A stretch of DNA of 62,229 bases, counting the filler, from Nemertoderma westbladi (lineage: Eukaryota; Animalia; Xenacoelomorpha), in assembly GCA_032718475.1 (NCBI GenBank). It is 3 parts of 3 records of this genome, joined end to end, with 100 filler letters (N's around TTAATTAATTAA, not from the genome) between each part and the next. Parts side by side here need not be neighbours in the genome. Positions count along the whole stretch, not along the records: positions 16,241 to 43,817 come from JAUCBJ010001791.1; positions 43,918 to 62,229 come from JAUCBJ010008350.1; 1 more part is not named here. One strand, given 5' to 3'. Below the pieces are notes generated by a model, which worked only from the letters and a program-made list of their open reading frames with translations, was not told the DNA's origin and did not search any database. Below are positions 25,791 to 55,913 of the stretch, piece by piece (within the stretch, counting starts at the first letter, position 1; every line of letters starts with the position of its first letter). Made by a program: the position numbers and the translations under genes.

Positions 25791-27800
25791 ATGGCTCCCA
25801 AATTGAAAAGTAGCGGTAGCATATTAAAAGGTTGCAAGAAACACCCATCTAATCCCTCCCGCCTTCAGACGCGACGGAACCGGAACCTACGACTCAGTGT
25901 GATCCCGGGCTGCGCCCACGCACTGCCCGACCAGAGACCCGCCGTCGGGGGCTCTGTGCCCAACACCCCCCAGCAGGATTCGCCCTCCAATCCCATGTGT
26001 CTACCCACCGAGTTCCAGCGCCGACTCGCGGTCTGCGAATCCTCGGGATCCAGCTCCGATGGCCCCTCAACCTCCTCCCACTACCCGACGCCTCGCTACG
26101 ATCTACGCGCTCGTCTGCCTCCCTTCACGCCCAACTGTTCCCCTTTACCGTCGAAGAAACGGAAATCCTGCGTCCTCATTTCGGCAGCGCCGAATTCCGT
26201 CAAAACCACCGAATCCAAAGAGAATACCAATGACGGCGCGGGCAGAGCCTACCTTCGCGACGTACTGCCTGACGAACTGTTGCTCCGTATCTGCAGTTTC
26301 CTCACCGAGTTGGATCTATGCCGCCTCTCTTGTGTTTGTCGCCGTTTCTTTATGATAGCTAAAGACCCTTATCTGTGGAAACGGCTGTACCGCTATCTCT
26401 TCGAGCACGACACCCCCCTTGTCATGCCGGAACGGGGTCGGTTTGAATTCCTCGTCGCGCCTTTCTCGATGTCTAAATGGAAGGAAAGTCTGAAACTGCT
26501 ATACCGTGGTGTTCATGTGTCAACGCGTCTACGTGCCGAATCGGGACCGAGTCGACGGATTAAGGCTACCGAATCTATAGAGGCCGCTGTCGCACTCGTG
26601 GAAACTTCCGACTTCCCGTTGGTGTTGGTCCATCCGGGGACCCACCGTGGATGGATCTGTCTGGACGCTCCGGTATGGATAGTCGGCGCGGCTCGCGGGT
26701 CGCCGGACGGGGTGGGTTCGATTCCGGCGGACCCGTACATGCCGTCGCCGACGCCGTGGAATCCAGCGGTACCGCCGGTCGCCGGGTCTCCGTCCCGTGT
26801 GGTCGCGGCACCGCTGAGCGGCTCGGAGCGGATCGCCGACCGCGTGGTCCTCATCAACCGCGCAGAGTCGACCGTGGTCTACTTGGAGGGCTCGTCCGGC
26901 TCCTACCTCGGTTACGTCACCGTCCGCTACGTCCCTCCCACTCCATCCACCAGCCCGCAGTACGGCAGCTGTGTCGAGATCAGCAACGCGTCGCCTCGGA
27001 TCGACCGTTGCGTCATCCGGAGCGGCGCGTCGACGGGCGCGGCGGTGCAGGTCAGCGGCTCTCGCGCCGATCCCGTGGTGTCCCGGTGCTGCGTGAGCGA
27101 GAGCGAAAACTGCGGTATATTCGTGAGCGACAGCGCGACGGGGACTTACACGGACAACGAGATCGGGGGCAATGGGTTGGCGGGGTTCTGGGTGAAGTCC
27201 GGGGCCAACCCTGTGGTTCGACGCGCCCACATCCACCATGGGCGAGACGTGGGCGTCTACTGCTTCGATAACGGTTTTGGGTATTTCCGGGATTGCAACA
27301 TCCATGACAATAGGATAGCCGGTGTCGAGGTGAAGGAGGGCGCGAATCCCTGCGTGATTAACTGCGACCTGCACCACGGGAAGACCGGCGGACTTTACAT
27401 ACACGAACGGGGAAGAGGGGAGTTCATTGCCAACAAATTTTACAACAACACGTTCGCCGGGGTCTGGGTCAGCAAGGAGAGTAATCCCACCATCCGTCAC
27501 AATGAGATCTTCAACGGTCACCAAGGCGGCGTTTACATCTTCGACAGGGGTCGCGGGTTGGTCGAGCACAACGACATTCACGACAACGCTCTGGCCGGGG
27601 TGCAGATCCGCACCGGTTCCGATCCGATCGTCCGACACAATAAGATCCACGACGGGAAACACGGAGGCGTCTACGTGCACGAGAGCGGGCAGGGTTTGCT
27701 CGAAGATAACGAGATCTATGGGAACGAGTTGGCCGGGGTCTGGATAACCACTGGGAGCTCCCCGCAGCTTCGTCGCAACAGGATACACAGCGGGAAACAG
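25791..27800 (+). CDS. FBXO11: F-box only protein 11, coding exon 1 (F-box, CASH/PbH1 beta-helix repeats)
   Basis: F-box LPDELLLRICSFL...LCRLSCVCRRF, serial GxWxK..ANP/IHHG repeats; ends RIHSGKQ at CAG|GTGAGT (phase 0). Confidence 0.95.
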
Positions 27801-30651
27801 GTGAGTACACAGTGGGAAACAGGTGAGTACACAGTGGGAAACAGGTGAGTACACAATGGGAAATAGGTGAGTACACGATGGGAAACAGGTGAGCACACAG
27901 TGGGAAACAAGTGAGTGCGCAGTGGGAAACAGGTGAGTGCGCAGTGGGAAACAGGTGAGTACACAATGGGAAATAGGTGAGTACACGATGGGAAACAGGT
28001 GAGCACACAGTGGGAAACAGGTGAGTGCGCAGTGGGAAACAGGTGAATGCGCAGTGGAAAACAGGTGAATGCGCAGTGGGAAACAGGTGAGTACACAATG
28101 GGAAACAGGTGAGTACCCAGTGGGAAACAGGTGGGTGCGCAGTGGGAAACAGGTGAGTACACTATGGGAAACAGGTGAGCACACAGTGGGAAACAGGTGA
28201 GTGCGCAGTGGGGAACAGGTGAGTACACAGTGGGAAACAGGTGAGTGCGCAGTGGGAAACAGGTGAGTGCATAGTGGGAAACAGGTGAGTGCGCAGTGGG
28301 AAACAGGTGAGTGCGCAGTGGGAAACGGGTGAGTGCACAGTGGGAAACAGGTGAGTGCGCAGTGGGAAACAGGTGAGTACACAATGGGAAATAGGTGAGT
28401 ACACGATGGGAAACAGGTGAGCACACAGTGAGAAACAGGTGAGTGCGCAGTGGGAAACAGGTGAGTTCAAAATGGGAAACAAGTGATTACACAGTGGGAA
28501 ACAGGTGATTACACAATGGGAAATAGGTGAGTACACGATGGGAAACAGGTGAGCATACAGTGGGAAACAGGTGAGTGCGCAGTGTGAAACAAGTGAGTAC
28601 ACAGTGGGAAACAGGTGAGTGCGCAATGGGAAACAGGTGAGTGCACAGTGGGAAACAGGTGAGTGCGCAGTGGGAAACAGGTGAGTACAAAATGGAAAAC
28701 AAGTGAGTACGCGATGGGAAACAGGTGAGTACACAATGGGAAACAGGTGAGTACACAATGGGATACAGGTGAGTACTCAGTGGGAAACTGGTGAGTACAC
28801 AATGAGAAACAGGTGAGTACTCAGTGGGAAACAGGTGAGTACAAAATGGGAAACAGGTGAGAACACAGTGGGAAACAGGTGAGTGCGCAATGGGAAACAG
28901 GTGAGTGCACAGTGGGAAACAGGTGAGCACACAGTGGGAAACAGGTGAGTACACAGTGGGAAATAGGTGAGTGCGCAGTGGGAAACAGGTGAGTGCGCAG
29001 TGGGAAACAAGTGAGTACACAGTGGGAAACAGGTGAGTGCGCAATGGGAAACAGGTGAGTGCACAGTGGGAAACAGGTGAGTGCGCAGTGGGAAACAGGT
29101 GAGTACAAAATGGAAAACAAGTGAGTACGCGATGGGAAACAGGTGAGTACACAATGGGAAACAGGTGAGTACACAATGGGATACAGGTGAGTACTCAGTA
29201 GGAAACTGGTGAGTACACAATGAGAAACAGGTGAGTACTCAGTGGGAAACAGGTGAGTACAAAATGGGAAACAGGTGAGAACACAGTGGGAAACAGGTGA
29301 GTGCGCAATGGGAAACAGGTGAGTGCACAGTGGGAAACAGGTGAGCACACAGTGGGAAACAGGTGAGTACACAGTGGGAAATAGGTGAGTGCGCAGTGGG
29401 AAACATGTGAGTGCGCAGTGGGAAACAGGTGAGTACACAATGGGAAACAGTGAGTACACAGTGGGAAACAGGTGATTACACAATGGGAAATAGGTGAGTA
29501 CACGATGGGAAACAGGTGAGCACACAGTGGGAAACAGATGAGTACACAATGGGAAATAGGTGAGTACACAATGGGAAACAGGTGAGTACACAGTGCGAAA
29601 CTGGCGAGTACATGATAGGAAACAGGTTAGTACACAGTGGGAAACAGGTGATTACACAATGGGAAATAGGTGAGTACACGATGGGAAACAGGTGAGCACA
29701 CAATGGGAAATAGGTGATTACACAATGGGAAGCAGATGAGTACACAATGGGAAACAGGTGAGTCTGCAGTGGGATACAGGTGAGTGCAAAGTGGAGGTGA
29801 GTGCGCAGTGGGAAACAGGTGAGTACACAATGGGAAACAGGTGAGTACACAGTGGGAAACAGGTGAGTACACAATAGGAAATAGGTGAGTACACGATGGG
29901 AAACAGTTGAGTACGCAGTGGGAAACAGGTGAGGGCACAGTGGGAAACAGGTGAGAGCGCAGTGGGAAACAGGTAAGTGCAAAGTGGAGGTGAGTGCGCA
30001 GTGGGAAACAGGTGAGTACACAATGGGAAACAGGTGAGTACTCAGTGGGAAACAGGTGAGTACACAATGGGAAATAGGTGAGTACACGATGGGAAACAGG
30101 TGAGCACACAGTGGGAAACAGGTGAGTGCGCAGTGGGAAACAAGTGAGTACACAGTGGGAAACAGGTGAGTGCGCAATGGGAAACAGGTGAGTGCACAGT
30201 GGGAAACAGGTGAGTGCGCAGTGGGAAACAGGTGAGTACAAAATGGGAAACAAGTGAGTACACGATGGGAAACAGGTGAGTACACAATGGGAAACAGGTG
30301 AGTACACAATGGGATACAGGTGAGTACTAAGTGGGAAACAGGTGAGTACACAATGGGAAACAGGTGAGTACTCAGTGGGAAACAGGTGAGTACACAATGG
30401 GAAACAGGTGAGTACACACACAGTGGGAAACAGGTGAGTACACAGTGGGAAACAAGTGAGTACATGGTGGGAAACAGGTGAGTACACAATGGGAAACAGG
30501 TGAGTACACAATGGGAAACAGGTGATTACACAGTGGGAAACAGGTGAATACAAAATGGGAAACAGGTGAGTACTCAGTGGGAAACAGGTGAGTACTCAGT
30601 GGGAAGCAGGTGACTACACAATGGGAAACAGGTGAGTACACAATGGGAAAC
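27784..30651 (+). repeat. 22-bp satellite (~130 units, TACACAGTGGGAAACAGGTGAG) filling most of the FBXO11 intron (27801-30959)
   Basis: Tandem units directly visible; the first unit overlaps the exon end. Confidence 0.97.
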
Positions 30652-30959
30652 AGACTGGGAGACAGGAAACACTGCTTTTATCTTAGCTTCTCGAAGACCA
30701 CGCTTATACCTGGAGAATTTCTAAATTTTTGCTAGACTACATGTGTACCATTATCGTTTAAATATTGGTATCGGTGCATAAATACATTCTGGTCATAAAC
30801 CTGGAAAGTGCTACTTTTCTCACAATGATGTTTTCATTTTGCCTATCACCTACGTTTTACTTTCGTTTAATTAAGTGTAACATTTCCTCCACTAATTAGT
30901 GGGCGTTAAATATAATATATATCCCATGAAATTCAGACTTATTGGTTTATTTGTATTAG

Positions 30960-31823
30960 GTGGGTGTCTACTTCTATGATAGAGGCCAAGGTGTTCTCGA
31001 AGAGAATGAAATATTCAACCACATATATTCTGGTGTCCAAATCCGAACCGGTTCCAACCCCCACATCCGGAAAAACAAGATATGGGGCGGCCAGAACGGG
31101 GGCATCCTCGTCTATAACGGGGGTCTGGGCGTTATCGAGGCTAATGAGATATTCGATAACGCAATGGCTGGTGTCTGGATCAAAACCGAAAGTAATCCCA
31201 CCCTCAAGAACAATAAGATCCACCACGGACGCGATGGGGGTGTCTGCGTATTCAACAACGGCAAGGGCATCCTCGAGGGCAACGATATCTTCTGCAACTC
31301 GCAAGCCGGAGTTCTTATCAGCATGTCATCGACCCCGTTGCTACGAAACAACCGGATATTCGACGGGTACGCCGCCGGTATCGAGATCACAAATAACGCG
31401 ACTGCCCAACTCTATGGCAACCACGTATACAACAACAAGTTCGCTGGTCTGTGTGTCGCTAGCGGGGTTAAACCGGTCCTTCTTGGGGGCAACATCATTG
31501 ACGGCAACCTGGATTGCATCAGACACACTGTCACCTCGGGCAAGTGTATCAACAGTGTGTCCGTGTACACCAGCTACCCCATGCACGACTTCTACCGGTG
31601 CCACACGTGCAGCGGCGCCAAGGAAAACAATACTATTTGCGTCAACTGTAAAACCCGTTGCCACAGTGGCCACAACGTGGTGTACGTTCGCCACGATAGA
31701 TTCGTATGCCACTGCGGCGATGGCTCCTTGGAGCGCGCGTGCCTCATCACCCACGACATACGGACTAGCACTAACACAGCGTACGAATCGGCTCACCCAG
31801 TAGGCGCCTCTTGTATCTTATAA
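30960..31823 (+). CDS. FBXO11: F-box only protein 11, coding exon 2 (PbH1 repeats, UBR-type zinc finger)
   Basis: Acceptor TTTATTTGTATTAG|GTG; VGVYFYD continues RIHSGKQ in frame; [13 protein letters not shown]...CVNC...CH.GH...HDRFVCHCG. Spliced product 957 aa. Confidence 0.95.
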
Positions 31824-32603
31824 TTACTAAAATTATATATTTTCAAATTAAGCTAACCAATAATCCTCAAACTCTGCGTATTCTCATGCAGTACCTACGT
31901 AAAGCTGTGCAACGGAATGGCCGATTCATCCTACCTTTAAATCTTACGTAAGCTCTGCAACACTTTACCGCCCACGGCTTCTTTAGTATGATCTACCGAT
32001 AGGGCGTGCTGCGAACTGTATATATGTCTACCACATTAGAACTATTCATAATGAATAGATACAAGGCATTATTTATTACTTATCTATGAAAATATTCGTT
32101 TTTTTCTGTGATTAATACGGCGATGAAAAGCGCTTGCTGGCCAAGGATTTACGTTGAGTCGATGGCACACCGGATGTCAGGGTGTCTCTCCGTCCTGCCG
32201 AGGGCCCTTTGGCGTCGTGTGTGAGGTGAACCTGAGCCGTACCATCGGGGAGGTGCGGGTACTGGACTGTTTAACGATAAGGTTGCAGGCCGCGGGTGTC
32301 ACAGATTAACCGGAACTCATCTAATGAGCTCAGAATTCGTGTATATTCTGTAACGTTTAAAATTATTATATTATTGAGATGTAGTTCGTTGTTCGTTCGT
32401 TATTACTTACTATATGTATAGCCGAACATTTATATATTTACTGTATTGGTGCTCAACCACGTATTTATTTATTTGTTTGTTGGTATCGATTGACGATATT
32501 TATGGGACATTAAGAAGACCAAGTCTACCTGCAATACTTTATTTTAGACCTTGTTCCACCCCTACAACTCTGGGTTTATTTTATTTCCTTCTCTCTCTTG
32601 GGA

Positions 32604-35247
32604 GGTCACTGTCACTTTAAAACGGCAAAATTTTAGCAAAATCTTTAATTGTTCATATATTTTGATTGCATGAACGAAATACGATAATTTTGGCTTATTT
32701 TAATTTGTATTTTTACTGTTTATATTAGATCCAGTGTAGATCTTCGGCGCAACTTTAAGCGTTTACGTTTTAGTACGCAGCTCCAGAGATATCCAAGGCA
32801 GACATGTTTTAGTTTTTATATGTTTTGAAGAGACAATATGAAAATTAGGTTCTGGACATAAACACGACTTAAATACATATTTATTTCGTCAATGAAAATA
32901 TGGGTTTTCTCAAAAAATATTACCGAACTTTGAAGGTTCACTGTTACTAGTAAAGTAGGTCTATAGTGGCACAAGTACGAGCCCATTCTGAAGATAATTT
33001 TATGTGCTTTCTATATAACCAATTTATTGATGTGACCACTGACCATATCATTTCCTATGGCGAAGCCATTGCCAAGAATGTAACACCAACTCGGGGAAAA
33101 AACATAAAAATGTAGATCGTAACTCGATTTTCGAGGTGCTATAAAATTGGTAACGTTGACGTGTTTGTATTGAGTCACCACTATTTTAAATACTTCCAAG
33201 GTACTCAACCATAAAATAAATCACATTCGATAAAAATCGACTGTTTGTTCCACGCCGAGCCTTAAATCAGTCGACTTTGGATAAGTTTGTAGACCGCGGA
33301 AAATATAGACTTTGGAAATACTCACAGAAACGTCGCCCAAGATCTACAAAATTTATATCCAAAGTCTAAAATTCAGTTCTAGTTCGGAATACGTTTTATT
33401 CAAAGTCTACAACGACTTATACTTTTCACATGACTTTTCAAGCTCTACAAAACGATAGAATCCTTTTTGGGGTAATTTTAAATTTTGTTATTATGCTCGT
33501 ACACTACTGGCTAACTGCAGTGTTGACAGCGGTGCGTTGAAGATTGCGAAATCACAAAAGTCATCTGTGAGCTATATGAACAACTAAAGTAATGTTAATA
33601 TAACTTTATCTTTCTAATATTTGGGCCTTGTGATATAAAGTGATAAAAAGATGCCAAGAACACGTTTCGTGAAATTAAAAATTGAATTCAAACTTACAAT
33701 CCCGATCGCGATCCCGGCAATCCCGAAATGTCTGATCCCGTTTAAACACTAATATATATATATATACAGACAAACCAAACACGGCTAATGTAAAAGTTAA
33801 AAAAATGTACTAAGGATCAAGAGGGGAAACCAATTTTAACCAAAAAGGTGTAATCGCTTAAAAAAAATGAAATTTGCAACGATGTTTCTCGTGTTGGGTG
33901 GCCTTTGTTTCGAGGATCACAGCACTACAAAGCCAGAACAGATCTCGCTGCTGGACTAAATGCCTAATAATACTTTGGATGTATTTCGGAGTATTCTATA
34001 ACTATAAATTTAGACAATGAAATAAACACGGCGCGATTCATATTCAATATTGGTTTGTAGTTGAGCTGCTCTCTACTTAAAATAATAAATATTCCAGAAC
34101 ATTGAGAAAGACAGCTTCCGGAGCGAGTACCAAAATTGGAATTGCTGTAATTACTAATATACTCTAGTTTGTTCAATTTTTGTTGTAACACTATTCGTTC
34201 AATCCTTTATTAAAGAATTAAGCAACAAGAAAGTACCAATTTAAGAATGAACTTCCCTATTACATGGGAAATATACGTTGGAAAATAAGTTTTTTCCCAA
34301 GAAATAAATAATTATTTTTAAAGTACCGGGCCGCTGCGGGTGGATTGGTAATTTGGATGAGATACCGGGATGGAATTGTTAGAGATAATTATTTCATGTA
34401 CGGAATTATCCAATGAGGAATCATCCGTGGTGGAATGGGGTAGTCGACTCAGAAAATTTTATTCGAGTTTTTGTTGGATTCATTTAAAAGAGCATGTGAA
34501 AAAACCCAAGAGAGCAATTTTACTTAATAATTAATTAATATTGGCTGAGTTATAGCGATTTTAAAACGCAAAATTAGCAACATCGAAAAATCAGGCCGTT
34601 TTAGGAACTTGTGCATTTGGCGTCAGCCATAACACAGCAACATTGTCAAGCGCATTTTGATTGGGTAATATAAAATATAATATCTCAGTAATCTAAAATT
34701 AAACAAATAATTAATGTAGCTAAGTATTTATTTGGATGTGTATTTATGGTGCGTTAAGGGATAGCGGGGCCCATGTGAAGAATACCAGACTTTCTGCCGT
34801 TACATTTTACTTTGCAGTTACCCCCATGTGAAGAAGACTATTCAAAAAAAGTATTCGAAAAAAAATGTCCGTTTCGCCTACCCCCTAACGCTTTAATGTA
34901 GTCAGAGAATCATTGTAGTAACCAACTGTGAAATATAACTTTGACATGAGATTTGTAGACTTTGAATTGATAGTACTGTATATATCCAAAGTCTATAACA
35001 TCAAAATGTAGACTTTGGAATTGAATATCACGTTCTACATAAAAATTTGTAGATTTTAGGTGAAAATTTGAGTTTTTTCTCACTAACTTTCCACAACCTG
35101 AATCAACTTATGTTTTATTATCAGATTCGTTTTCAGCACGAAAAAGCTATCGAATGATATAAGATGGGCCTACTTGCCTATTTCACCAACTTTGTTGAAA
35201 TTTCGCATAAAAGATGCGCTTTTTGCCGCTTTAAAGTGACAGTGACC
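32604..35247. mobile_element. Non-autonomous DNA transposon (~2.6 kb), 4-bp TSD, unclassified
   Basis: TIR GGTCACTGTCACTTTAAAACGGCAAAA / TTTTGCCGCTTTAAAGTGACAGTGACC; TSD GGGA (32600-03, 35248-51). Confidence 0.8.
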
Positions 35248-35649
35248 GGGAGAAATTCGAAAGTTATTCCAATATGCCTCACAAAACGAACTCATCGGTA
35301 AATAGATAACACTGATTATAATAGTAGCTTACCTACCCACACATACCAATTACAATATTTTAAGAATATTGCGTAGGCCCTATTACTTGTGTTGTGTCTG
35401 CTGCAAAAATATAGTTGATATTATTTTCAATATGCATTTTACATTAAATTCATACATTTCATCATCTTATAACTAACAGATTTTAATGTTTTAACTTTAA
35501 GTGCAATTTCCCGCTAATTAAAATATTCCGATCTTTGCGTGTTTAGTTTAGGAACACCTCTTAATAAGTTTGGTCAAATTTTATAAAATTTTAAGTGAGA
35601 CTCTAGAAATATTTAAAACCCTATGTTTGAGAATCTAGAAGAGGTATGA

Positions 35650-38937: not shown

Positions 38938-39176
38938 TCACAGTTTTTTGGGCGGTATACTGGGTCTGAAGTCTGATGGTGTTGAATCTGAGGGTTTCTG
39001 GAATATAATTTTGCGGGTTTTGAGGGGCTGCCACTTATTTTTAGACAACCAGAAGGCTAGTAATGTAATTGTACCGGTCACGATGAGGGCTTTATATCCA
39101 ATGATTTTCCTATCATCGTGCTCTGGTTCAGCACACCAGCGCAGGAAAGTAACAACATCCTTCGCACATTGGCTGG
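38938..39176 (-). CDS. CYC1: Cytochrome c1, last coding exon (C-terminal TM anchor); acceptor may alternatively be at 39198
   Basis: Manual translation SQCAKDVVTFLRWCAEPEHDDRKIIGYKALIVTGTITLLAFWLSKNKWQPLKTRKIIFQKP...PKKL* matches the cytochrome c1 C-terminus (SQ.AKDV.TFLRW..EPEHD.RK..G.K...KW..LK.RK). Upstream exons were not found in the window. Confidence 0.9.
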
Positions 39177-39363
39177 CTGTAACGGGAAAAATACAAACCT
39201 ATAAGAAGTGGTTGTCATTGATACTCTAATTAATCTAATACATTTTGTATAATTTCTTAGATAAGACCCGGTTAAACTTGGGGTTACAGTAGGGTTCAAA
39301 TAATGCTTGAATTATTTATGGTCTATACCTGACCAACAAAACCTAACCCCAAAAACACGCTCG

Positions 39364-42300
39364 TTAACTTACCGGTGTCCCGAACTGGTTAACTTACCGA
39401 TGTCCCAACCGGGTTAACTTACTGGTGTCCCAAACTGGTTAACTTACCGGTGTCCCGAACTAGTTAACTTACCGGTGTCCCGAACTGGTTAACTTACCGA
39501 TGTCCCAAACAGGTTAACTTACCGATGTCCCGAACTGGTTAACTTACCGGTGTCCCAAACTGGTTAACTTACCGGTGTCCCGAACTAGTTAACTTACCGG
39601 TTTCCCGAACTGGTTAACTTACCGATGTCCCAAACAGGTTAACTTACCGATGTCACAAACAGGTTAACTTACCAATGTCCCGAACTGGTTAACTTACCGG
39701 TGTCCCAAACTGGTTAACTTTCCGGTGTCCCAAACTAGTTAACTTACCGGTGACCCAAACTGGTTAACTTACCGGTGTCCCGAACTAGTTAACTTACCGA
39801 TGTCCCGACCAGGTTAACTTACCGGTGTCCCAAACTGGTTAACTTACCGGTGTCCCGAACTAGTTAACTTACCGGTGTCCCGAACTGGTTAACTTACCAA
39901 TGTCATAAACAGGTTAACTTACCGATGTCCCGAACTGGTTAACTTACCGGTGTCCCAAACTGGTTAACTTACCGATGTCCCGATCTGGTTAACTTACCGG
40001 TGTCCCAAACTGGCTAACTTACCGGTGTCCCGAACTAGTTAACTTACCGGTGTCCCGAACTGGTTAACTTATCGATGTCCCAAACAGGTTAACTTACCGA
40101 TGTCCCGAACCCGAACTAGTTAACTTACCGGTGTCCCGACCTGGTTAACTTACCGGTGTCCCGCACTGGTTAACTTTCCGGTGTCCCGAATTGGTTAACT
40201 TAACGGTGTCCCGCACTGGTTAACTTACCGGTGTCCCAAACAGGTTAACTTACCGGTGTCCCGACCTGGTTAACTTACCGATGTCCCGAACTAGTTAACT
40301 TACCGATGTCCGAACTGGTTAACTTACCAATCTCCCAAACTGGTTAACTTACCGGTGTCCCAAACTGGTTAACTTTCCGGTGTCCCGAACTAGTTAACTT
40401 ACCGGTGTCCCGAACTGGTTAACTTACCGATGTCCCAAACAGGTTAACTTACCGATGTCCCGAACTAGTTTACTTCCCGGTGTCCCAAACTGGTTAACTT
40501 ACCGGTGTCCCGTATGGTTAACTTACCGGTGTCCCAAACTGGTTAACTTACCGGTGTCCCATATGGTTAACTTAACGGTGTCCCATATGGTTAACTTACC
40601 GGTGTCCCGAACTGGTTAACTTACCGGTGTCCCGTATGGTTACTTACCAATGTCCCGACCTGGTTAACTTACCTGTGTCCCGCACTGGTTAACTTACCGA
40701 TGTCCCGACCTGGTTAACTTACCGGTGTCCCGCACTGGTTAACTTACCGATGTCCCAAACAGGTTAACTTACCGATGTCCCGAACTGGTTAACTTACCGA
40801 TGTCCCGACCTGGTTAACTTACCGGTGTCCCGCACTGGTTAACTTTCCGGTGTCCCGAACTAGTTAACTTACCGGTGTCCCGAACTGGTTAACTTACCGA
40901 TGTCCCAAACAGGTTAACTTACCGATGTCCCGAACTAGTTAACTTGCCGGTGTCCCGACCTGGTTACTTACCGGTGTCCCGCACTGGTTAACTTTCCGGT
41001 GTCCCGAACTAGTTATCTTATCGGTGTCCCAAACTGATTAACTTATCGGTGTCCCGACCTGGTTACCTTACCGGTGTCCCACACTGGTTAACTTTCCGGT
41101 GTCCCGAATTGGTTAACTTACCGGTGTCCCGCAGCGGTTAACTTACCGGTGTCCCAAACAGGTTAACTTACCGGTGTCCCGACTTGGTTAACTTACCGAT
41201 GTCCCGAACTAGTTAACTTACCGGTGTCCCGAACTGGTTAACTTACCGATGTCCCAAACAGGTTAACTTACCGATGTCCCGAACTAGTTAACTTACCGGT
41301 GTCCCGACCTGGCTACTTACCGGTGTCCCGCACTGGTTAACTTTCCGGTGTCCCGAACTAGTTATCTTATCGGTGTCCCAAACTGGTTAACTTACCGGTG
41401 TCCCGACCTGGTTACTTTACCGGTGTCCCACACTGGTTAACTTTCCGGTGTCCCGAATTGGTTAACTTACCGGTGTCCCGCAGTGGTTAACTTACCGGTG
41501 TCCCAAACAGGTTAACTTACCGGTGTCCCGCCTTGGTTAACCTACCGATGTGCCGAACTGGTTAACTTTCCGGTGTCCCGAACTAGTTAACTTACCGGTG
41601 TCCCGAACTGGTTAACTTACCGATGTCCCAAACAGGTTAACTTACGGATGTCCTGAACTAGTTAACTTACCGGTCTCCCGACCTGGTAAACTTACCTGTG
41701 TCCCGCACTGGTTAACTTACCGATGTCCCGACCTGGTTAACTTACCGGTGTCCCGCACTTGTTAACTTACCAGTGTCCCGCACTGGTTAACTTACCGGTG
41801 TCCCGACCTGGTTAACTTACCGGTGTCCCGCACTGGTTAACTTACTGGTGTCCCACACTGGTTAACTTACCGATGTCCCGTATTGTTAACTTACCGGTGT
41901 CCCGAACAGGTTAACTTACCGGTGTCCGAACTGGTTAACTTACCGGTGTCCCGTTTGGTTAACTTACCGATGTCCCGAACTGGTTAACTTACCGGTGTCA
42001 GAACTGGTTAACTTACCGGTGTCCCGAACTGGTTAACTTACCAGTGTCCCGTATGGTTAACTTACCGGTGTCCAAACTGGTTAACTTACCGGTGTCCCAA
42101 ACTGGTTAACTTACCGGTGTCCCAAACAGGTTAACTTACCGGTGTCTCTAACTGGTAAACTTCCGAGGCCCCGACCTGGTTAACTTAATTTGTGTCTACT
42201 GTTGATGGTGACACAGAACCATTTGAAGTATCCTCCAGGGAGACACTCTTGCGCCATTCTTGTTCATAATTGTGGTTGACTATGTTCTACGCATGTCCTT

Positions 42301-43817
42301 AGATCATCATAATGATGATGGAGTGATGATAACTCCACCTACTGGCTCCAGAAGTCGAGGAAATACTGCCATGCACCTAACTGATCTAGACTTTGCTGAT
42401 GACTTAGGAGTACTCTCAGAATCACTAGAGGGATCCCAACGGCTCCTCAGCTCATTAGAACATGCTGCTTCTAGTGTTGGTCTTTTTATTAACTCCAAAA
42501 AGACCAAAATTTGATAGTTAACCTTGAAAGTCCTCAGCAAGTCTCTGACCGGATGAGCATAAGCTCAAAGGATGGTATGCTTGAGCATGTGGATGACTTC
42601 TGTTACCTGGGATCATGGATCCGGAAGTCAGGTGAGGACCTTCGAATATGTAAGGCAAATGCATGGGCAGCCTTGAATAGGCTTTCCAGGATTTGGAAGT
42701 CCCCGAGAATTCATCGGAAACTTAAGGTCCGATTATTTAGAGCAGCAGTAGTTCCAGTACTCCTCTATGGGAGTCCATGCTGGGCTCTAACTACTGAGGA
42801 CACCAAATCTCTGGATGGCACATTCACAAGAATGCTACGCCGGGTTCATTGTGTCAAGTACAATGCACACATCTCCAACCAGACAGACACTATATAATAT
42901 TGGAGGTGTCTCATTGGTTCCCCCAAGCTTGACACTAGAACAAAGCCGCCTCCGCTTTGCAGGACATTGCTTTCGCCGTGAGGACCAGCCAGTACATAAT
43001 ATTGTGCTTTGGCAGCCTCATGGAGTGAATAAACATGGACAGCCCATGACTTTCTTGAGACGCATCTTAAAGGACACTGGCCTTGAAGATGCGTACGATC
43101 TAGCAAATGTCATGGGTGATAGGGAGTTGTGGCGGCGCAATTTTGTCGACAAGCCGGCACAGCATTCTTAAAAATGCAGCTGCAATGCAGCATGCCGAGC
43201 CGATCCTAGTAGTAGTCCCGCACTGGTTAACTTACCGGTGTCCCACACTGGTTAACTTACCGGTGTCCCACACTGGTTAACTTACTGATGTCCCGACCTA
43301 GTAACTTACCGGTGTCCCAAACTGGTTAACTTAACGGTGTCCCGAACTGGTTAACTTACCGTGTCCTGAACTGGTTAACTTACCGTGTCCCGAACTGGTT
43401 AACTTACCGTGTCCTGAACTGGTTAACTTATCGGTGTCCCGAACTGGTTAACTTACCGTGTCCCGAACTGGTTAACTTACCGTGTCCTGAACTGGTTAAC
43501 TTATCGGTGTCCCGAACTGGTTAACTTACTCGTGTTCCGAACTGGTTAACTTACCGGTGTCCCAAACTGGTTAACTTACTGATGTCCCGACCTAGTAACT
43601 TACCGGTGTCCCAAACTGGTTAACTTAACGGTGTCCCGAACTGGTTAACTTACCGTGTCCCGAACTGGTTAACTTACCGTGTCCTGAACTGGTTAACTTA
43701 ACGGTGTCCCGAACTGGTTAACTTACCGGTGTCCCAAACTGGTTAACTTAACGGTGTCCCGAACTGGTTAACTTACCGTGTCCCGAACTGGTTAACTTAC
43801 CGTGTCCTGAACTGGTT
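39364..43817 (-). repeat. 25-bp satellite (+ strand GGTTAACTTACCGGTGTCCCGAACT), interrupted by an RTE, runs into the gap
   Basis: Tandem units directly visible; each carries GGGACACCG|GTAAGT on the minus strand. Confidence 0.97.
42188..43216 (+). mobile_element. 5'-truncated RTE-clade LINE inserted in the satellite
   Basis: LAPFLFIIVVDYVLR, DLDFADDL, VDDFCYLGSW, LLYGSPCW, RLRFAGHCFR; frameshifts; (TAG)n tail. Confidence 0.9.
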
Positions 43818-43917
43818 NNNNNNNNNNNNNNNNNNNNNNNNNNNNNNNNNNNNNNNNNNNNTTAATTAATTAANNNNNNNNNNNNNNNNNNNNNNNNNNN
43901 NNNNNNNNNNNNNNNNN
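43818..43917. other. Assembly gap with artificial TTAATTAATTAA linker
   Basis: N44-TTAATTAATTAA-N44. Confidence 0.98.
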
Positions 43918-45558: not shown

Positions 45559-45563
45559 ACTTG

Positions 45564-46108: not shown

Positions 46109-46224
46109 CGCATTGTGTAGCATTGTGTCGCCTTTGTAGCGTTTTGCTACGTACCGTAGATGGTTTCAATTGATGTATGAATTCGCCGAGATGGTACTCT
46201 ATTTCCACCCCCCCCCCCCCCCTT

Positions 46225-46320
46225 ATTTCCCAATGACAGCAACCATTACTGCTGGTATTCCATAAGCTCTTAGGATTTCCAGCATCTTCCCTCTATGGAT
46301 GAGTCGAATGAAACTCTGGG
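46225..46320 (-). mobile_element. Degraded RTE RT fragment
   Basis: Minus-strand SIHRGKMLEILRAYGIP motif. Confidence 0.6.
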
Positions 46321-47632: not shown

Positions 47633-48178
47633 TTTACTACATATAAAATAATTTGCAGGTCCTTTAATTCTAATTAATTATATCGTATGTTTTGTGATGG
47701 CTTTCAAATTGTATTTTTGGATATTGGATATTGTTTTGGTTTTTCTCCGTATTACAAAGCAAGCAAGTAAACAGTCGGCCGGAGGCTCCTCTTTCGATAT
47801 CTGTTACCTGCCGGAAGTTGGTGGGCGCTACTCCTATCCAAGTTTTAATGCCCATAATTCTACTCCGGTTCTCATTTTATCGACCCCCATGGGATGAAAT
47901 GCAGAGTGGAACCTAGAGCGGGATTCGAACCTACAACCATGACCTACTATAGACTTTATAGAAGGTCATGCTACAACAAATATATATTGCAGGACCATGA
48001 CTCAACCAACTGAGACAAATATTATAACTAATATTTTTGGGTATAATAAATATAGAATAATGTAGATATTGTTGTTCTAGAATACTTTTTGTATGTGGGA
48101 AGAATAAATTTATTTGGAATACTGTAAATTTCACATTTGGCTCTGTAAAGATAACAATACATGCTCTTGAAAGCATAA
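47633..48178. repeat. ~550-bp local duplication, copy 2
   Basis: Direct repeat of 45564-46108. Confidence 0.9.
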
Positions 48179-48605
48179 TTTAATGACGTGATGAAAGTGA
48201 TTAAATATAAATATCACTAATTATTACAGTCCTTAAAAATATTATTATAAGAACAATATCAACACAAAGAAACACATTAACACAGATATTAACAACTATT
48301 TATTTTACAATTAGAAAGTAACATATTTATGTACGACTTTTTAATTAGAAATTTGAGGTAAAATTTGCACCAAATGTCCAATCAAATGATACGTGAGTTA
48401 ATATATGGTAGATACACTTTGTGATTGTAGATGATAATTAAATAATTAATCGATGTCAATTAAATAATTAAATCGTTATTTCTTTAAACTAATTCTAGAA
48501 CTACGTTTACCAACTAAAAAAACAAATTAAATATAAACACAGTAATAATAATAATAATAATAATTAAATGGTGCACTACATACACACTACACAAGTACAC
48601 ACTAC

Positions 48606-49423
48606 ATAGTTTCACCTCCCGACCACTGACTGGGTGAGCCAGAATTTTTATTTTTGCTTTCAATCTTTAGCTACAAGCGTTTAAAAAAGTGTCTCCAGCG
48701 ATATTATACCAGTTACACCGCAGTTATTCTTCTACAGTACCTTATAGCTGTTTGTTGGTACCAATGCAAAGCTGGCCCTGCATGAATTTCAAATATGTAA
48801 CACAATTTGAATTTCGTTGAAAAATAGCTGAGATATGGGCGTTCAAATGTTGCATGGTTTTGCACCGGCGTGAGGCAATATTATTCTATTTAATAAATAC
48901 ATCATAATCTGGAATATTTTGTTTATCCAAATACGTAGCTGGGCAACAATGCATTACATCTTTAATCATACTATTATGTAGCTATTCACACATTTAAAAA
49001 ATGTTCCAGAATATGGTTTATTTATTAATAGAATAAAATAGCCTCGCGCCGGTGCAAAACCATGCAACATTTGAACGTTCATATCTCAGCTATTTTTCAA
49101 CGAAATTCAAATTGTGTTACATATTTGGAATCCTTGCATGACCAGCTTTCCATTGGTACCAACAAACAGATATAAGGTAGAAGAATAACTGCGGTGTAAC
49201 TGGTGTAATATCGCTGGAGACACTTTTTTTAAACGCTTGTAGCTAAAGATTGAAAGCAAATATAAAAATTCTGGCTCACCCAGTCAGTGGTCGGGAGGTG
49301 AAACTATCTCTGTTTCAAATTTCATGCAATCTCATTAAGATTTGTAGAAAAATTAGGTGGTGGGGGGGTGGGGGCGGGGGGGGTGTCACTGAATTACGAC
49401 ACTATATTCTGGGACATGGTGTA
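48606..49423. mobile_element. Foldback MITE with ~290-bp inverted arms, left end truncated
   Basis: 48606-48898 is the reverse complement of ~49017-49307; right terminus GGGACATGGTGTA; related pieces at ~58910-59050 and ~59960-60171. Confidence 0.85.
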
Positions 49424-50685
49424 AGGTAGAAGAATAAATGATAAAAAACTAATAATACTATATATTGAAGTTGAAGTAAACGAATAAACAATGTCAGAGA
49501 ATCATTAATTATTTATTAAAGAATTATTGATTGTTAAATAACTCCAATATATATATATGTTTTGGATATTAGTCATCATAACAATATATTATTTCTACAT
49601 TAGTTTGCTAAACTCATTCTTAGGATGAAACATTGTTTAACCCAATTCAAGAAAATCGACAAAAGTAGGCCTTCATCTTTCAAAATAGTGCCGGTATCTA
49701 TCAATTTATGTACAGTATAAAAGATAAAAGGAATTATTATATTTTATACTACTTGTCGGAGTTCGCTTGACCTAGTAGTAGTATAAAAGATAATATTAAA
49801 ATATATAAAACTATTACCTGCACTATTACATGTACAATATTTTAATGTTTTACATATTGAAAGGAGAAAAAGAGTAGGTCTACTGTACTTTTTCCCGGGG
49901 AAGAAGTGTGACCCATAGGATTGCATTGATTTTACTTTTTTCCCGGCGAAAAATTAGAGTAAAATATAATATTTTTGGTAAAATTTCCTAAATTGTATTA
50001 CATTGGTTGAAAGAGCATCGAAGTAGAAAAGGTTTGCAAGTAATTTGAGCAAAATCCATTCTCACACTCAAACGTTATTGCAACTTTAGTGTCTACGCGG
50101 CGTTCACTAAAACGGAACTCAATGTTCGGGCCAGTTCTATCTGTATCATTCAAGACTTTTATTTCATTTAAATAGGAATATTTATCATTTTAAATCGATA
50201 TAATGTGATTTTGAATGACTTTGGAAACAAAGTATATTTTTTAATTTCAATATCATTTACAAATTTTTCCTAGTACCTCAAATTATAAATATAATTAATA
50301 ACATAATTTTATTGTTACATTTAGCGATATGGCACTATAGTATTTTTAGACACCCTATTCGCTCGTATCGTGTACCCCCAATCGGGTCAAACGGCTAAAA
50401 GTGCTACTTTTCACAAAGTAGCACTTTATATCGCAGTTACTGTAGTAGTAGTAGTGACGGTTATGCGGCCTATAATTGTCCAGCCTATAATATTTAACTT
50501 TTGAATTATTTACATAATCAAATTAAAGACAAATAATTGTATAATATTGAAACTAGTGGAGCCCTTTTTAGTATAAACTTACCTTGCCTTAAGGTATTTT
50601 TGTAAACAGTACATAATATTTTACAACAAATTACGTTTGCAAAATTTCAAGAACAGTAAACAAGTTACCTAATATCACATCCAAA

Positions 50686-52419
50686 ATGGGCGAGGTGCGC
50701 CTGCAAGACCTGGGTATTATTAAAGGTCTTGACGAAATTGAATCGTTTGTAAACGACGACAAATCCTCTCGGTTCGACATCGTGTGGGAGTACGTTGGTG
50801 GATTCGGACCATTCCAATGGATTTACGTCTGGTTCGGTTTTGCCTTTTTCTGCGCCAGTATTTCCTCTTTACTGATGATGGAGTTGGTGTTTTTCGGAAT
50901 GCACACAGGAATGTCTTGTCGTCTGCCTCCGCATCCAGACATTACTGAAGAAAACAAACATCTTTTTGAGGTAGGACTTTTACCGCCCGGTGAGTATCCT
51001 GGTATGCCGTCGTTTTGTGGCATTTACGATAGAACCTGGACTGTGATCAACGAATCCTACATAGATTTCAGCAAAGGTACTGACGTATTGGAGTGCCCTC
51101 ATGGGTGGAACTACGATAAATCGGTGTACGCGGACACATTGGTAATGCACTACGATTGGGCATGTAGTAAAATGGGCAAATACGGTGTCTCAGTGACAAC
51201 CAACATCTTGGCAACAATTCCCGGGACGCTCATGTTTGGATTAATCGCAGGACGCTTCGGACGCCGACCTTGCATATTCTTGTCCACGTTGCTACACGCT
51301 CTTAGCTACTACATGCTCTACATAAAACCCGGGAATATGGTTTTCTTTATTTGCAACCGCTTCGTTATGGGTTTCACCTATGCCGGGATTTACAACATCG
51401 GGGCCGTGATGTGCGGAGAGTTGCTGGGTCCGAAACATCGTGATGCTGTAATCCTGTCCATGCAAGCGTTCTACGGAGTTGGCATGATGTACGGCACACT
51501 GTGCTTCTACATATTCCGTAAGGAGAGCTGGCGTTGGTACCACTTTTCCCAGGCGTTGATACCCACTCTCTACGTGTTTTACTATTTTTTCGCACCGGAA
51601 TCACCGAGATGGCTTTGTACACGGGGCAGGTACGCCGAGGCCAAGAAGCAACTACAACGGATAGCTAGATTTAACAAAGGAACTTTGCCGCCAGACATCG
51701 ACGAGATTATGAGGTTAGAAAAAGAACATAGTAAAAAACTGGATAACGAGGGGATGGACATAATGGAAACCAAGTATAATCGCGACTTCTTTCGTTGGGG
51801 GAATCTTAAGAAGACGCTCCTTTTTAGGGTGCTGATGAATTTCGAAGTTGTAAAACGGAATGTTATTGTAAATATAACATTTCTAACCTTGGGAGTTACG
51901 TGGTTTGGGATGCTTCTGGGGGTAAGGGCGCTCCCCACTGATTTCTTTGTAACAAATGTCATTTCCGGTTGCACTGAGATCTTAGCAACTATTGTGGGGT
52001 ATCTAATGAGCCACTTTCTCGGCAGAAAACCATCAATGATCTCTATTCTGCTCTTCACAGGAACTTTGTGTTGTCTCACAGCTTTCACGCCGAATAGTTG
52101 GGCTAATGGGTGGGTTAAAACAGCGGCTTCTATGACAGGAAAAACTGGTATAGCAGCAAGTTGGGCACTAAATATTAGTTATGCTGTGGAGCTATACCCA
52201 ACTGAAGCGCGATCCCAACTTTTAGCATTGAACGTTGTATTTATGTTGACCGGTGGGTCTACAGTTCCCAAGCTAACATGGAAGCCCAAATGGATAATGC
52301 TGATGTACTCAATAATGTGTTGGGTATCAGGGTTGCTATATCTATTCGTACCTGAAACTCGTAATAGGCCAATGCCAGATCTGGTACGTAACATTGTCAG
52401 GGCTAACCCTGTTGCCTGA
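50686..52419 (+). CDS. SLC22-family (organic cation transporter-like) MFS transporter, 577 aa, intronless
   Basis: VGGFGPFQW, Cys-rich loop CPHGWNYD...YDWAC, GRFGRRP, PESPRWL, ELYPTEARS, PETRNRPMPD. Confidence 0.93.
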   Translation: MGEVRLQDLGIIKGLDEIESFVNDDKSSRFDIVWEYVGGFGPFQWIYVWFGFAFFCASISSLLMMELVFFGMHTGMSCRLPPHPDITEENKHLFEVGLLPPGEYPGMPSFCGIYDRTWTVINESYIDFSKGTDVLECPHGWNYDKSVYADTLVMHYDWACSKMGKYGVSVTTNILATIPGTLMFGLIAGRFGRRPCIFLSTLLHALSYYMLYIKPGNMVFFICNRFVMGFTYAGIYNIGAVMCGELLGPKHRDAVILSMQAFYGVGMMYGTLCFYIFRKESWRWYHFSQALIPTLYVFYYFFAPESPRWLCTRGRYAEAKKQLQRIARFNKGTLPPDIDEIMRLEKEHSKKLDNEGMDIMETKYNRDFFRWGNLKKTLLFRVLMNFEVVKRNVIVNITFLTLGVTWFGMLLGVRALPTDFFVTNVISGCTEILATIVGYLMSHFLGRKPSMISILLFTGTLCCLTAFTPNSWANGWVKTAASMTGKTGIAASWALNISYAVELYPTEARSQLLALNVVFMLTGGSTVPKLTWKPKWIMLMYSIMCWVSGLLYLFVPETRNRPMPDLVRNIVRANPVA

Positions 52420-55400
52420 CCAATAGTTTCCTCTCAATGGGCGAACCGGTTTGCCTGACCAATAGTTCCCTCTCAATGGGCGAACCGGTTTGCATGACCA
52501 ATAGTTTCCTCTCAATGGGCGAACCGGTTTGTCTGACCAATAGTTTCTTCTCAATGGGCGAACCAGTTTGTCTGACCAATAGTTAACTCTCAATGGGCGA
52601 ACCGGTTTGTCTGACCAATAGTTTCCTCTCAATGGGCGAACCGGTTTGCATGACCAATAGTTTCCTCTCAATGGGCGAACCGGTTTCTCTGACCAATAGT
52701 TTCTTCTCAATGGGCGAACCAGTTTGTCTGACCAATAGTTAACTCTCAATGGGCGAACCGGTTTGTCTGACCAATAGTTTCCTCTCAATGGGCGAACCGG
52801 TTTGTCTGACCAATAGTTTCTTCTCAATGGGCGAACCAGTTTGTCTGACCAATAGTTAACTCTCAATGGGCGAACCGGTTTGTCTGCCCAATAGTTGGCT
52901 CTCAATGGGCGAACCGGTTTGCCTGACCAATAGTTTCCTCTCAATGGGCGACCGGTTTGCAAGACCAATAGTTAACTCTGAATGGGCGAACCGGTTTGTC
53001 TGCCCAATAGTTGGTTCTCAATGGGCGAACCGGTTTGTCTGACCAATAGTTTCCTCTCAATGGGCTAACCGTTTTGTCTGCCCAATAGTTGGTTCTCAAT
53101 GGGCGAACCGGTTTGTCTGACCAATAGTTTCCTCTCAATGGGCGAACCGTTTTGTCTGCCCAATAGTTGGCTCTCAATTGGCGAACCGGTTTGTCTGACC
53201 AATAGTTAACTCTCAATGGGCGAACCGGTTTGTCTGACCAATAGTTTCCTCTCAATGGGCGAACCGGTTTGTCTGCCCAATAGTTGGCTCTCAATAGGCG
53301 AACCGGTTTGTCTGACCAATAGTTTCCTCTCAATGGGCGAACCGGTTTGTCTGACCAATAGTTTCCTCGCACTGGGCAAACCGGTTTGTCTGCCCAATAG
53401 TTGGTTCTCAATGGGCGAACCGGTTTGTCTGACCAATAGTTTCCTCTCAATGGGCGAACCGTTTTGTCTGCCCAATAGTTGGTTCTCAATGGGCGAACCG
53501 GTTTGCCTGACCAATAGTTTCTTCTCAATGGGCGAACCAGTTTGTCTGACCAATAGTTAACTCTCAATGGGCGAACCGGTTTGTCTGACCAATAGTTTCC
53601 TCTCAATGGGCGAACCGGTTTGTCTGACCAATAGTTTCCTCTCAATGGGCGAACCGGTTTGTCTGACCAATAGTTGGCTCTCAATGGGCGAACCGGTTTG
53701 TCTGACCAATAGTTTCCTCTCAATGGGCGAACCGGTTTGTCTGCCCAATAGTTGGTTCTCAATGGGCGAACCGGTTTGTCTGACCAATAGTTTCCTCTCA
53801 ATGGGCGAACCGGTTTGTCTGCCCAATAGTTGGTTCTCAATGGGCGAACCGGTTTGTCTGACCAATAGTTTCCTCTCAATGGGCGAACCGGTTTGCCTGA
53901 CCAATAGTTTCCTCTCAATGGGCGAATCGGTTTGTCTGACCAATAGTTGGCTCTCAATGGACGAACCGGATTGTCTGACCAATAGTTGCCTATCAATGGG
54001 CGAACCGGTTTGTCTCACCAATAGTTTCCTCTCAATGGGCGAACCGGTTTGTCTGACCAATAGTTTCCTCTCAATGGGCGAACCGGATTGTCTGACCAAT
54101 AGTTTCCTCTCAGTGGACGAACCGGATTGTCTGACCAATAGTTGTCTATCAATGGGCGAACCGGTTTGTCTCACCAATAGTTTCCTCTCAATGGGCGAAT
54201 CGTTTTTCCTGATCAAATAGTTGCCTATCAATTGGCGAACCGGTTTGTCTGACCAATAGTTTACTCTCAATGGGCGAACCGGTTTGTCTCACCAATAGTT
54301 TCCTCTCAATGGGCAAACCGTTTTGTCTGACCAATAGTTGGCTCTCAATGGGCGAACCGGTTTGTCTCACCAATAGTTTCCTCTCAATGGGCAAACCGTT
54401 TTGTCTGACCAATAGTTGGCTCTCAATGGGCGAACCGGTGTGTCTGACCAATAGTTTCCTCTCAATGGGCGAACCGGTTTGTCTGACCAATAGTTTCCTC
54501 TCAATGGGCGAACCGGTTTGTCTGACCAATAGTTTCCTCTCAATGGGCGAACCGGTTTGTCTAACCAATAGTTTCCTCTCAATGGGCGAACCGGATTGTC
54601 TGACCAATAGTTGCCTATCAATGGGCGAACCGGTTTGTCTGACCAATAGTTTACTCTCAATGGGCGAACCGGTTTGTCTCACCAATAGTTTCCTCTCAAT
54701 GGGCAAACCGTTTTGTCTGACCAATAGTTGGCTCTCAATGGGCGAACCGGTGTGTCTGACCAATAGTTTCCTCTCAATGGGCGAACCGGTTTGTCTGACC
54801 AATAGTTTCCTCTCAATGGGCGAACCGGTTTGTCTGACCAATAGTTTCCTCTCAATGGGCGAACCGGTTTGTCTAACCAATAGTTTCCTCTCAATGGGCG
54901 AACCGGATTGTCTGACCAATAGTTGCCTATCAATGGGCGAACCGGTTTGTCTGACCAATAGTTTCCTCTCAATGGACGAACCGGATTGTCTGACCAATAG
55001 TTGCCTATCAATGGGCGAACCGGTTTGTCTCACCAATAGTTTCCTCTCAATGGGCGAATCGTTTTTCCTGATCAAATAGTTGCCTATCAATTGGCGAACC
55101 GGTTTGTCTGACCAATAGTTTCCTCTCAATGGGCGAACCGGTTTGTCTGACCAATAGTTTCCTCTCAATGGGCGAACCGGTTTGCCTGACCAATAGTTGG
55201 CTCTCAATGGGCGAACCGGTTTGTCTGACCAATAGTTTCCTCTCAATGGGCGAACCGGTTTGTCCGACCAATAGTTTCTTCTCAATGGGCGAACCAGTTT
55301 GTCTGACCAATAGTTGGCTCTCAATGGGCGAACCGGTTTGTCTGACCAATAGTTGGCTCTCAATGGGCGAACCGGTTTGTCTGACCAATAGTTTCCTCTC

Positions 55401-55913
55401 AATGGGCGAACCGGTTTGTCTGACCAATAGTTGGCTCTCAATGGACGAACCGGATTGTCTGACCAATAGTTGCCTATCAATGGGCGAACCGGTTTGTCTC
55501 ACCAATAGTTTCCTCTCAATGGGCGAATCGTTTTTCCTGATCAAATAGTTGCCTATCAATTGGCGAACCGGTTTGTCTGACCAATAGTTTCCTCTCAATG
55601 GGCGAACCGGTTTGTCTGACCAATAGTTTCCTCTCAATGGACGAACCGGATTGTCTGACCAATAGTTGCCTATCAATGGGCGAACCGGTTTGTCTCACCA
55701 ATAGTTTCCTCTCAATGGGCGAATCGTTTTTCCTGATCAAATAGTTGCCTATCAATTGGCGAACCGGTTTGTCTGACCAATAGTTTCCTCTCAATGGGCG
55801 AACCGGTTTGTCTGACCAATAGTTTCCTATCAATTGGCGAACCGGTTTGTCTGACCAATAGTTTCCTATCAATTGGCGAACCGGTTTGCCTGATTAAATA
55901 GTTTCCTCTCAAT
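52400..55913 (+). repeat. 39-bp satellite (~90 units, GGGCGAACCGGTTTGTCTGACCAATAGTTTCCTCTCAAT) starting at the SLC22 stop codon
   Basis: Tandem units directly visible; the first unit is the last ~20 nt of the CDS plus 19 nt after the stop. Confidence 0.97.

What the first reader, a model, noticed from the sequence alone, without database searches (positions are those of the whole stretch)
27784..55913. Every large satellite here is an amplified gene-processing signal (two splice donors, one stop codon)
Seen: the three multi-kb arrays have unrelated units (22, 25, 39 bp). Two demonstrably begin across the end of a coding segment and extend 3' (FBXO11 exon/5' splice site; SLC22 last codons/TGA). 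The third carries a consensus donor in the sense of CYC1. A small fourth case (42 bp) spans the stop of the transposon ORF2. The stop-spanning units are multiples of 3 and the donor-spanning ones are not (n is tiny). Inference: either a mechanism preferentially seeds tandem amplification at exon 3' boundaries, or such duplications are the ones that survive selection because the first copy keeps the gene intact. Either would make gene-specific 'junction satellites' a genome-wide feature that inflates introns and UTRs. I do not recognise this as a described class but cannot search.
Basis: partly seen in the sequence, partly recalled or inferred. Interest (0 to 1): 0.85.

Follow-up and report, generated by a model that had tools for sequence, protein, structure and literature searches.

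The report
Satellites grown from coding-sequence edges
In an animal, three multi-kilobase repeats are head-to-tail copies of their genes' own coding edges (one splice signal, likely a second, and one stop codon); this is a large version of the "mirage" repeats known from lancelets and humans, and the stop-codon case suggests that the coding edge, not splicing itself, likely decides where they survive.

Summary
All three arrays over 1 kb have unrelated units. FBXO11: 131 x 22 bp, 17 exon bases plus GTGAG, filling 90% of an intron whose position is shared with other organisms; only the first of 115 donors gives an intact protein. SLC22-like gene (coding sequence without introns): 90 x 39 bp, in register 17 coding bases + TGA + 19 downstream bases. 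CYC1: about 138 x 25 bp reading G-T-P then GTAAGT; its upstream exon lies beyond a gap, so the junction is inferred. Chance placement is unlikely (about 2e-4, post hoc).

The class is already described: lancelet "mirage" minisatellites and human F7/CBS/PDGF donor-spanning VNTRs. This scan has noted the splice-site form many times on other DNA of this genome (unchecked notes). What this window adds is a kilobase array across a stop codon, which I did not find in print. The multiple-of-3 rule is not supported. Likely mechanism: local duplication favoured in coding DNA, survival only when the extra copies fall outside the reading frame, then growth by block duplication. No RNA, reads or whole genome were available.

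The parts
25791..27800 (+). FBXO11 coding exon 1 (670 codons; F-box and beta-helix)
   Evidence: Pfam; named homologs about 63-71% identical over residues 440-670; tblastn
27784..30653 (+). Donor-spanning array, 131 x 22 bp: last 17 exon bases + GTGAG; first copy is the gene's own exon end
   Evidence: 115 GTRAG donors, only the first gives an intact frame
30654..30959 (+). Non-repetitive rest of the FBXO11 intron with acceptor
30960..31823 (+). FBXO11 coding exon 2 (beta-helix, UBR zinc finger, stop)
38938..39198 (-). Last coding exon of cytochrome c1 (CYC1); acceptor either before 39176 (phase 1) or before 39198 (phase 0)
   Evidence: Pfam PF02167 E 7e-14; PDB E 4e-21; acceptors listed
39363..42187 (-). 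CYC1 intron array, part 1: 113 x 25 bp; unit reads G-T-P codons then GTAAGT
42188..43214 (+). 5'-truncated LINE (reverse transcriptase) piece inserted into the array
   Evidence: RVT_1; 95% identical to the copy at 59071-59530
43215..43817 (-). CYC1 intron array, part 2: 25 copies, runs into the gap; the genic first copy is missing
50686..52419 (+). SLC22-like organic cation transporter, one uninterrupted reading frame of 577 codons
52400..55913 (+). Stop-spanning array, 90 x 39 bp: 17 coding bases + TGA + 19 downstream bases
7892..7996 (-). 2.5 x 42 bp repeat over the stop of the transposon's second ORF; the half that holds the stop is a small hairpin

Best explanation
The three arrays are tandem copies of short pieces that straddle the 3' edge of a coding sequence (shown for FBXO11 and the SLC22-like gene, likely for CYC1), and they likely arise because short duplications are seeded or grow preferentially in coding DNA and survive only where the extra copies fall outside the reading frame. 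Step 1 (inferred): a 22-39 bp piece is duplicated in place. Step 2 (shown by frame for FBXO11, inferred for the RNA): the first copy keeps the exon end and donor, or the stop, so the protein is unchanged and the spare donors are likely ignored, as in human F7. Step 3 (shown as pattern, mechanism inferred): the array grows by copying blocks of units, through unequal exchange or slippage. Step 4 (shown): the intron swells about tenfold or more. Duplications wholly inside exons would be purged unless they are in frame in a tolerant protein. No function of the arrays is needed.
For: FBXO11: the join at the first donor gives the residues found in 119 of 119 homologs examined, so the exon part of the unit is old coding sequence. 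114 of 115 GTRAG donors break the frame or meet a stop. The intron position is shared by 23 of 80 related loci (38 contiguous, 19 without the motif), and none of the 15 with a visible donor repeats it within 400 bases. SLC22-like: whole number of units, and the genic allele at unit position 16 is kept in copies 2, 3 and the last (13 of 87 anchored copies). CYC1: the pattern G-T-P codons + GT occurs in 9e-5 of random 25-mers of the window, and homologs read DGTPAT-x-x-Q just there. Block duplications: exact internal repeats of 205 bp at offset 418, 311 bp at offset 312 and 107 bp at offset 470. Arrays are 48-50% GC like the exons (45-60%), not like the flanks (34-37%). The stop case lies in a reading frame without introns. 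An in-frame 39-bp coding repeat survives at 12428-12885. First-donor use is in print for F7 (PMC1557585).
Against: No RNA or reads were seen, so splicing at the first donor and the 3' UTR of the SLC22-like gene are untested. There is only one large stop case. Its first copy differs from the array consensus at 5 of 39 positions, all in the coding part, and it begins about where family similarity of the tail ends, so the frame may have run into an existing array that supplied the stop. In the 42-bp case the stop lies in a hairpin half-unit and the array ends before it, so that stop may also have come with the repeat. The CYC1 join is unresolved: a phase-0 donor fits only the 39198 acceptor, with five extra residues. 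The GC match follows from exon origin and does not show a GC-driven cause. The seeding bias itself was not measured. Unchecked scan notes on this genome are almost all about splice sites; a search for 'stop' returned 3 notes, none titled as a stop-spanning array.
Confidence: 0.55

Rival explanations
1. Splicing-coupled seeding: pausing, R-loops or repair at splice junctions seed the duplications, and the stop-codon arrays are coincidences or arrays that supplied the stop.
For: Both introns visible in the window open with such an array (one inferred). Unchecked scan notes list many donor and acceptor arrays in this genome and none titled as stop-spanning. The origin of the SLC22-like stop is not proven.
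Against: The largest array here spans a stop in a reading frame without introns, in whole-unit register. Donor columns are no better conserved among FBXO11 copies (92-99%) than most other columns. Splice sites outnumber stops in most genes, so more splice cases are expected under either model.
Confidence: 0.22
2. Pure survival filter plus ascertainment: duplications arise anywhere, and junction cases are simply the ones a reader notices.
For: 21 of 25 merged TRF arrays are neither on a listed boundary nor the main CYC1 array, so small arrays do arise elsewhere. The window was selected for the pattern.
Against: All 3 arrays over 1 kb are at coding edges, although non-coding DNA is most of the window and tolerates arrays. 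Random placement gives 1.7e-4 for at least 2 of 3.
Confidence: 0.1
3. The arrays are kept for a function, such as tuning splicing, sending mis-spliced RNA to decay, or acting as 3' UTR elements.
For: Most copies keep a donor (115 GTRAG in 131 FBXO11 copies; 104 GGTAAGT in about 138 CYC1 copies). Some human cases use the nearest pseudo-sites (6-16, CBS; PMC1557585 introduction).
Against: No extra conservation of the donor columns. The units are unrelated. None of 15 orthologous donors in other organisms carries such a repeat. A LINE piece interrupts one array.
Confidence: 0.07
4. Assembly artefact, or insertion of a dispersed satellite or transposon-borne repeat.
For: No reads could be checked. 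The CYC1 array ends at a gap. Privacy of the units was tested only inside the window.
Against: 56, 63 and 39 distinct unit variants with nested block duplications. A LINE sits inside one array, with different variants on its two sides. The FBXO11 unit encodes residues conserved in 119 of 119 homologs.
Confidence: 0.06

Closest known systems
Lancelet 'mirage' minisatellites (Adh3, globins BflGb6/BflGb9, troponin C, PGBD5). Seen: matching passages of PMC3087553 and PMC3902484; the original Adh3 paper PMC117041 was not held and is known only through these.
   Same: Locus-specific tandem repeats whose unit spans an exon-intron boundary and repeats the splice signal; unit sizes of 10-160 bp include 22 and 25 bp.
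   Different: Reported globin and PGBD5 mirages have 2-7 units, here 90-138 units over 2.9-3.5 kb. One array here spans a stop codon, not a splice site. Normal splicing and length instability were reported there and are untested here.
Human donor-spanning VNTRs: F7 intron 7 (37 bp x 5-9), and 6-16, CBS intron 13, LAMIN B2 and PDGF intron 4 as cited there. Seen: PMC1557585 abstract, introduction and discussion.
   Same: The first monomer holds the exon end and the real donor; later copies are pseudo-donors; the most upstream donor is the one that gives the protein.
   Different: At most about 25 pseudo-sites there, over 100 here. In humans these are scattered cases, here all three kilobase arrays of the window.
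Intron gain by tandem duplication of an AG|GT site (Rogers model, as summarised in PMC3087553)
   Same: The FBXO11 junction is CAG|GT, and the unit resembles the sequence across the spliced junction.
   Different: The FBXO11 intron position is shared with 23 of 80 related loci, so the array did not create the intron.

Membership tests
Mirage / junction-spanning minisatellite | First unit spans an exon-intron boundary (FBXO11 array) | tested here: met
   17 exon bases + GTGAG; junction fixed by 119 of 119 homologs
Mirage / junction-spanning minisatellite | First unit spans an exon-intron boundary (CYC1 array) | tested here: inconclusive
   Unit reads G-T-P + GTAAGT, but the upstream exon is not in the window
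Mirage / junction-spanning minisatellite | First unit spans an exon-intron boundary (SLC22-like array) | tested here: not met
   It spans a stop codon of an uninterrupted frame; it is built like a mirage but is not one by definition
Mirage / junction-spanning minisatellite | Splice signal repeated in the copies | tested here: met
   115 GTRAG in the FBXO11 array; 104 GGTAAGT in the CYC1 array
Mirage / junction-spanning minisatellite | Minisatellite-sized unit (about 10-160 bp) | tested here: met
   22, 25 and 39 bp; range from PMC3087553
Mirage / junction-spanning minisatellite | Unit private to its locus | tested here: inconclusive
   No other match in the 62-kb window; no genome held
Mirage / junction-spanning minisatellite | mRNA spliced at the genic site, no aberrant transcripts | not testable with these tools
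   No RNA holder listed; only the frame argument
Mirage / junction-spanning minisatellite | Length polymorphism or somatic instability | not testable with these tools
   One assembly, no reads
Intron gained by tandem duplication (Rogers model) | Intron position is new to the lineage | tested here: not met
   Same phase-0 intron in 23 of 80 related FBXO11 loci

The most novel reading that the evidence does not exclude
This animal has a mutational process that turns any edge of coding sequence, including stop codons of genes without introns, into a kilobase-scale private satellite, and this process is a main driver of intron and 3' UTR length in its genome. The SLC22-like array would be the first described stop-codon counterpart of a mirage and would show that the spliceosome is not the seeding agent.
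Probability: 0.35. Interest if true: 0.7.

Novelty: new variant of a known kind. Interest (0 to 1): 0.45.

Why it matters
How mirage repeats arise is stated to be unclear in the lancelet work (PMC3087553). A genome where they reach 100 copies and more, and where one spans a stop codon, makes the question testable: counting arrays per donor, acceptor, start and stop separates splice-coupled seeding from a coding-edge survival rule. Introns with over 100 near-identical donors are also a natural test of first-donor choice. In practice such arrays break assemblies inside genes (CYC1 here) and can mislead gene prediction.

Tried and rejected
Whole-genome test: no genome held. RNA: no RNA holder listed for window 25790-27790, so no reads were laid. 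CYC1 upstream exon: not found by motif scan or by tblastn with a bacterial cytochrome c1; protein search for longer relatives found none and the genome-contig scan found none. Intron gain by the FBXO11 array: rejected. A shared hairpin cause: rejected, with folding z-scores from -2.07 to 0.25 over 7 strands. Multiple-of-3 rule: 2 of 2 and 2 of 2 here (about 0.05 by simple arithmetic, post hoc), contradicted by published 60, 81 and 108 bp splice-site units. Gradient of similarity to the genic copy: flat for FBXO11 (0.84-0.85), slight for the SLC22-like array (0.84 to 0.80, indels not corrected). A paper search for a human FBXO11 exon boundary using a recalled variant name gave nothing useful. 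Literature searches: 1 paper; 2; 17; 11; 3; 1; 31. From listings and the passages read, none reports a stop-spanning array or a genome-wide count. Passages of two acoelomorph genome papers (PMC9911081, PMC10565955), PMC12783039, PMC10078293 and PMC3152781 did not describe it. Their supplements were not read, and most subscription papers are not in the library. The host lineage was not established: FBXO11 exon 2 is 57-67% identical to 114 homologs with no close one.
Full report
Observation. TRF finds three arrays over 1 kb: 27784-30653 (22 bp), 39363-43817 (25 bp, in two parts) and 52412-55913 (39 bp), plus a 2.5-copy 42-bp repeat at 7892-7996. Merged, the window holds 25 arrays. Three overlap a listed coding boundary directly, and the CYC1 array is a fourth by inference. 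The three large units share at most 6 bases and have no other match in the window at up to 25% mismatch. Two 100-base spacers (44 N, 12 bases, 44 N) at 16141 and 43818 look like artificial joins between contigs; this is my inference.

FBXO11. Exon 1 (25791-27800) and exon 2 (30960-31823) carry F-box, beta-helix and UBR domains. Joined at the first donor they give the junction residues found in 119 of 119 homologs examined. The array has 131 copies, 56 distinct variants and 91% mean identity to its consensus. The first copy is the last 17 exon bases plus GTGAG and differs from the consensus at one synonymous position. Of 115 GTRAG donors in the array region, only the first gives an intact reading frame. 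The array fills 2853 of 3159 intron bases. Of 80 related loci, 23 have an intron at the same phase-0 position, 38 are contiguous (these include likely transcript assemblies, which I did not separate) and 19 lack the motif. None of the 15 with a visible donor repeats it within 400 bases. So the intron is old, the exon sequence is old, and the array was copied from them.

SLC22-like gene. One frame of 577 codons (50686-52419) matches organic cation transporters. Read in register from 52400, the array is 90 whole units of 17 coding bases, TGA and 19 downstream bases, ending at 55913. The tail after the PET motif is 22 residues, at the short end of the 20-87 seen in 27 of 30 homologs that have the motif. 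The genic copy differs from the consensus at 5 positions, all coding. One of these alleles is kept in copies 2, 3 and the last (13 of 87 anchored copies), which fits growth from the genic copy but does not prove it. The unit has stops in two of three forward frames, so a frame running into an older array cannot be excluded.

CYC1. The last exon (minus strand, stop at 38938) matches cytochrome c1. The array has 113 + 25 copies, is split by a LINE piece 95% identical to another copy in the window, and runs into the gap. The upstream exon is not in the window. The unit reads G-T-P codons followed by GTAAGT in gene sense. Homologs have DGTPAT just before the residues of the last exon, and this pattern occurs in 9e-5 of random 25-mers of the window. 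The exact join is open: a phase-0 donor fits the acceptor before 39198 with five extra residues, while the acceptor before 39176 needs a phase-1 donor.

The 42-bp case is weaker. It has 2.5 identical copies, the stop sits in a half-unit that folds as a 6-bp hairpin, and the array ends before that half. The stop may have arrived with the repeat.

Chance. With 14 coding boundaries in 52 kb of non-array sequence, the chance that at least 2 of 3 seed units cover one is 1.7e-4. This is post hoc, and the window was chosen for the pattern. Artefact is unlikely: the arrays have many variants and exact internal block repeats of 205, 107 and 311 bases. No reads could be checked.

Mechanism. A survival filter explains the direction: extra copies lie outside the frame and the first copy keeps the gene. 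It does not explain why no kilobase array here comes from ordinary non-coding DNA, which is most of the window and tolerates repeats. I therefore infer a bias in seeding or growth towards coding DNA, followed by the filter and by block-wise growth. The stop-codon array in a frame without introns argues that splicing is not required, but it is one case. Folding shows no common hairpin, and donor positions are no better conserved than most other unit positions, so I see no sign of function.

Known kinds. Tandem repeats whose unit spans an exon-intron boundary are described as mirages in lancelets (PMC3087553 and PMC3902484, passages read) and in human F7, 6-16, CBS, LAMIN B2 and PDGF (PMC1557585, abstract, introduction and discussion read). 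In F7 only the most upstream donor is used. The FBXO11 array meets the sequence definition, the CYC1 array likely does, and the SLC22-like array does not because it spans a stop. Published splice-site units of 60, 81 and 108 bp contradict the multiple-of-3 rule. My searches showed no stop-spanning array and no genome-wide count; the library lacks most subscription papers.

Other windows. The scan's notes on this genome describe many donor and acceptor arrays, some with RNA showing first-donor use, and one suggests an acoel host. These are unchecked and I tested none. A search for 'stop' returned 3 notes, none titled as a stop-spanning array, and a word search of all notes returned none.

Verdict. 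Real and beyond chance in the window; a known class at larger scale, with one new kind of edge. New variant of a known kind, interest 0.45.

Noticed in passing
window 5232-9769: A transposon-like element with an integrase-core ORF (6526-7689, Pfam rva_4) and a convergent second ORF, framed by long inverted ends that contain AT-rich 23-bp and 21/22-bp arrays. These arrays are not at coding edges.
   Followed up: partly
window 11817-13145 (minus): A 442-codon ORF with an in-frame 39-bp coding repeat (12 copies) and no convincing Pfam family.
   Followed up: no
window 39176-39198 (minus): The bases just upstream of the likelier CYC1 acceptor read in frame as P-V-T, matching conserved P-A-T, while the array unit reads G-T-P-V. 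Both ends of the intron thus resemble the same coding stretch; unexplained.
   Followed up: partly
window 25791-31823 and 50686-52419: Very few introns: FBXO11 has one coding intron and the SLC22-like gene none; coding DNA is 45-60% GC against 34-37% flanks.
   Followed up: no
window 57341-58013: A 21-bp array (17.6 copies) with an inverted partial copy about 250 bases upstream and a related single match at 4071; likely part of a dispersed element.
   Followed up: partly
window 3372-3616: A degenerate 24-bp repeat starts right after the stop of a LINE ORF (2961-3371); possibly an ordinary LINE tail.
   Followed up: no
window 16141-16240 and 43818-43917: Identical 100-base spacers (44 N, an AT-only 12-mer, 44 N), likely artificial joins between contigs.
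   Followed up: partly
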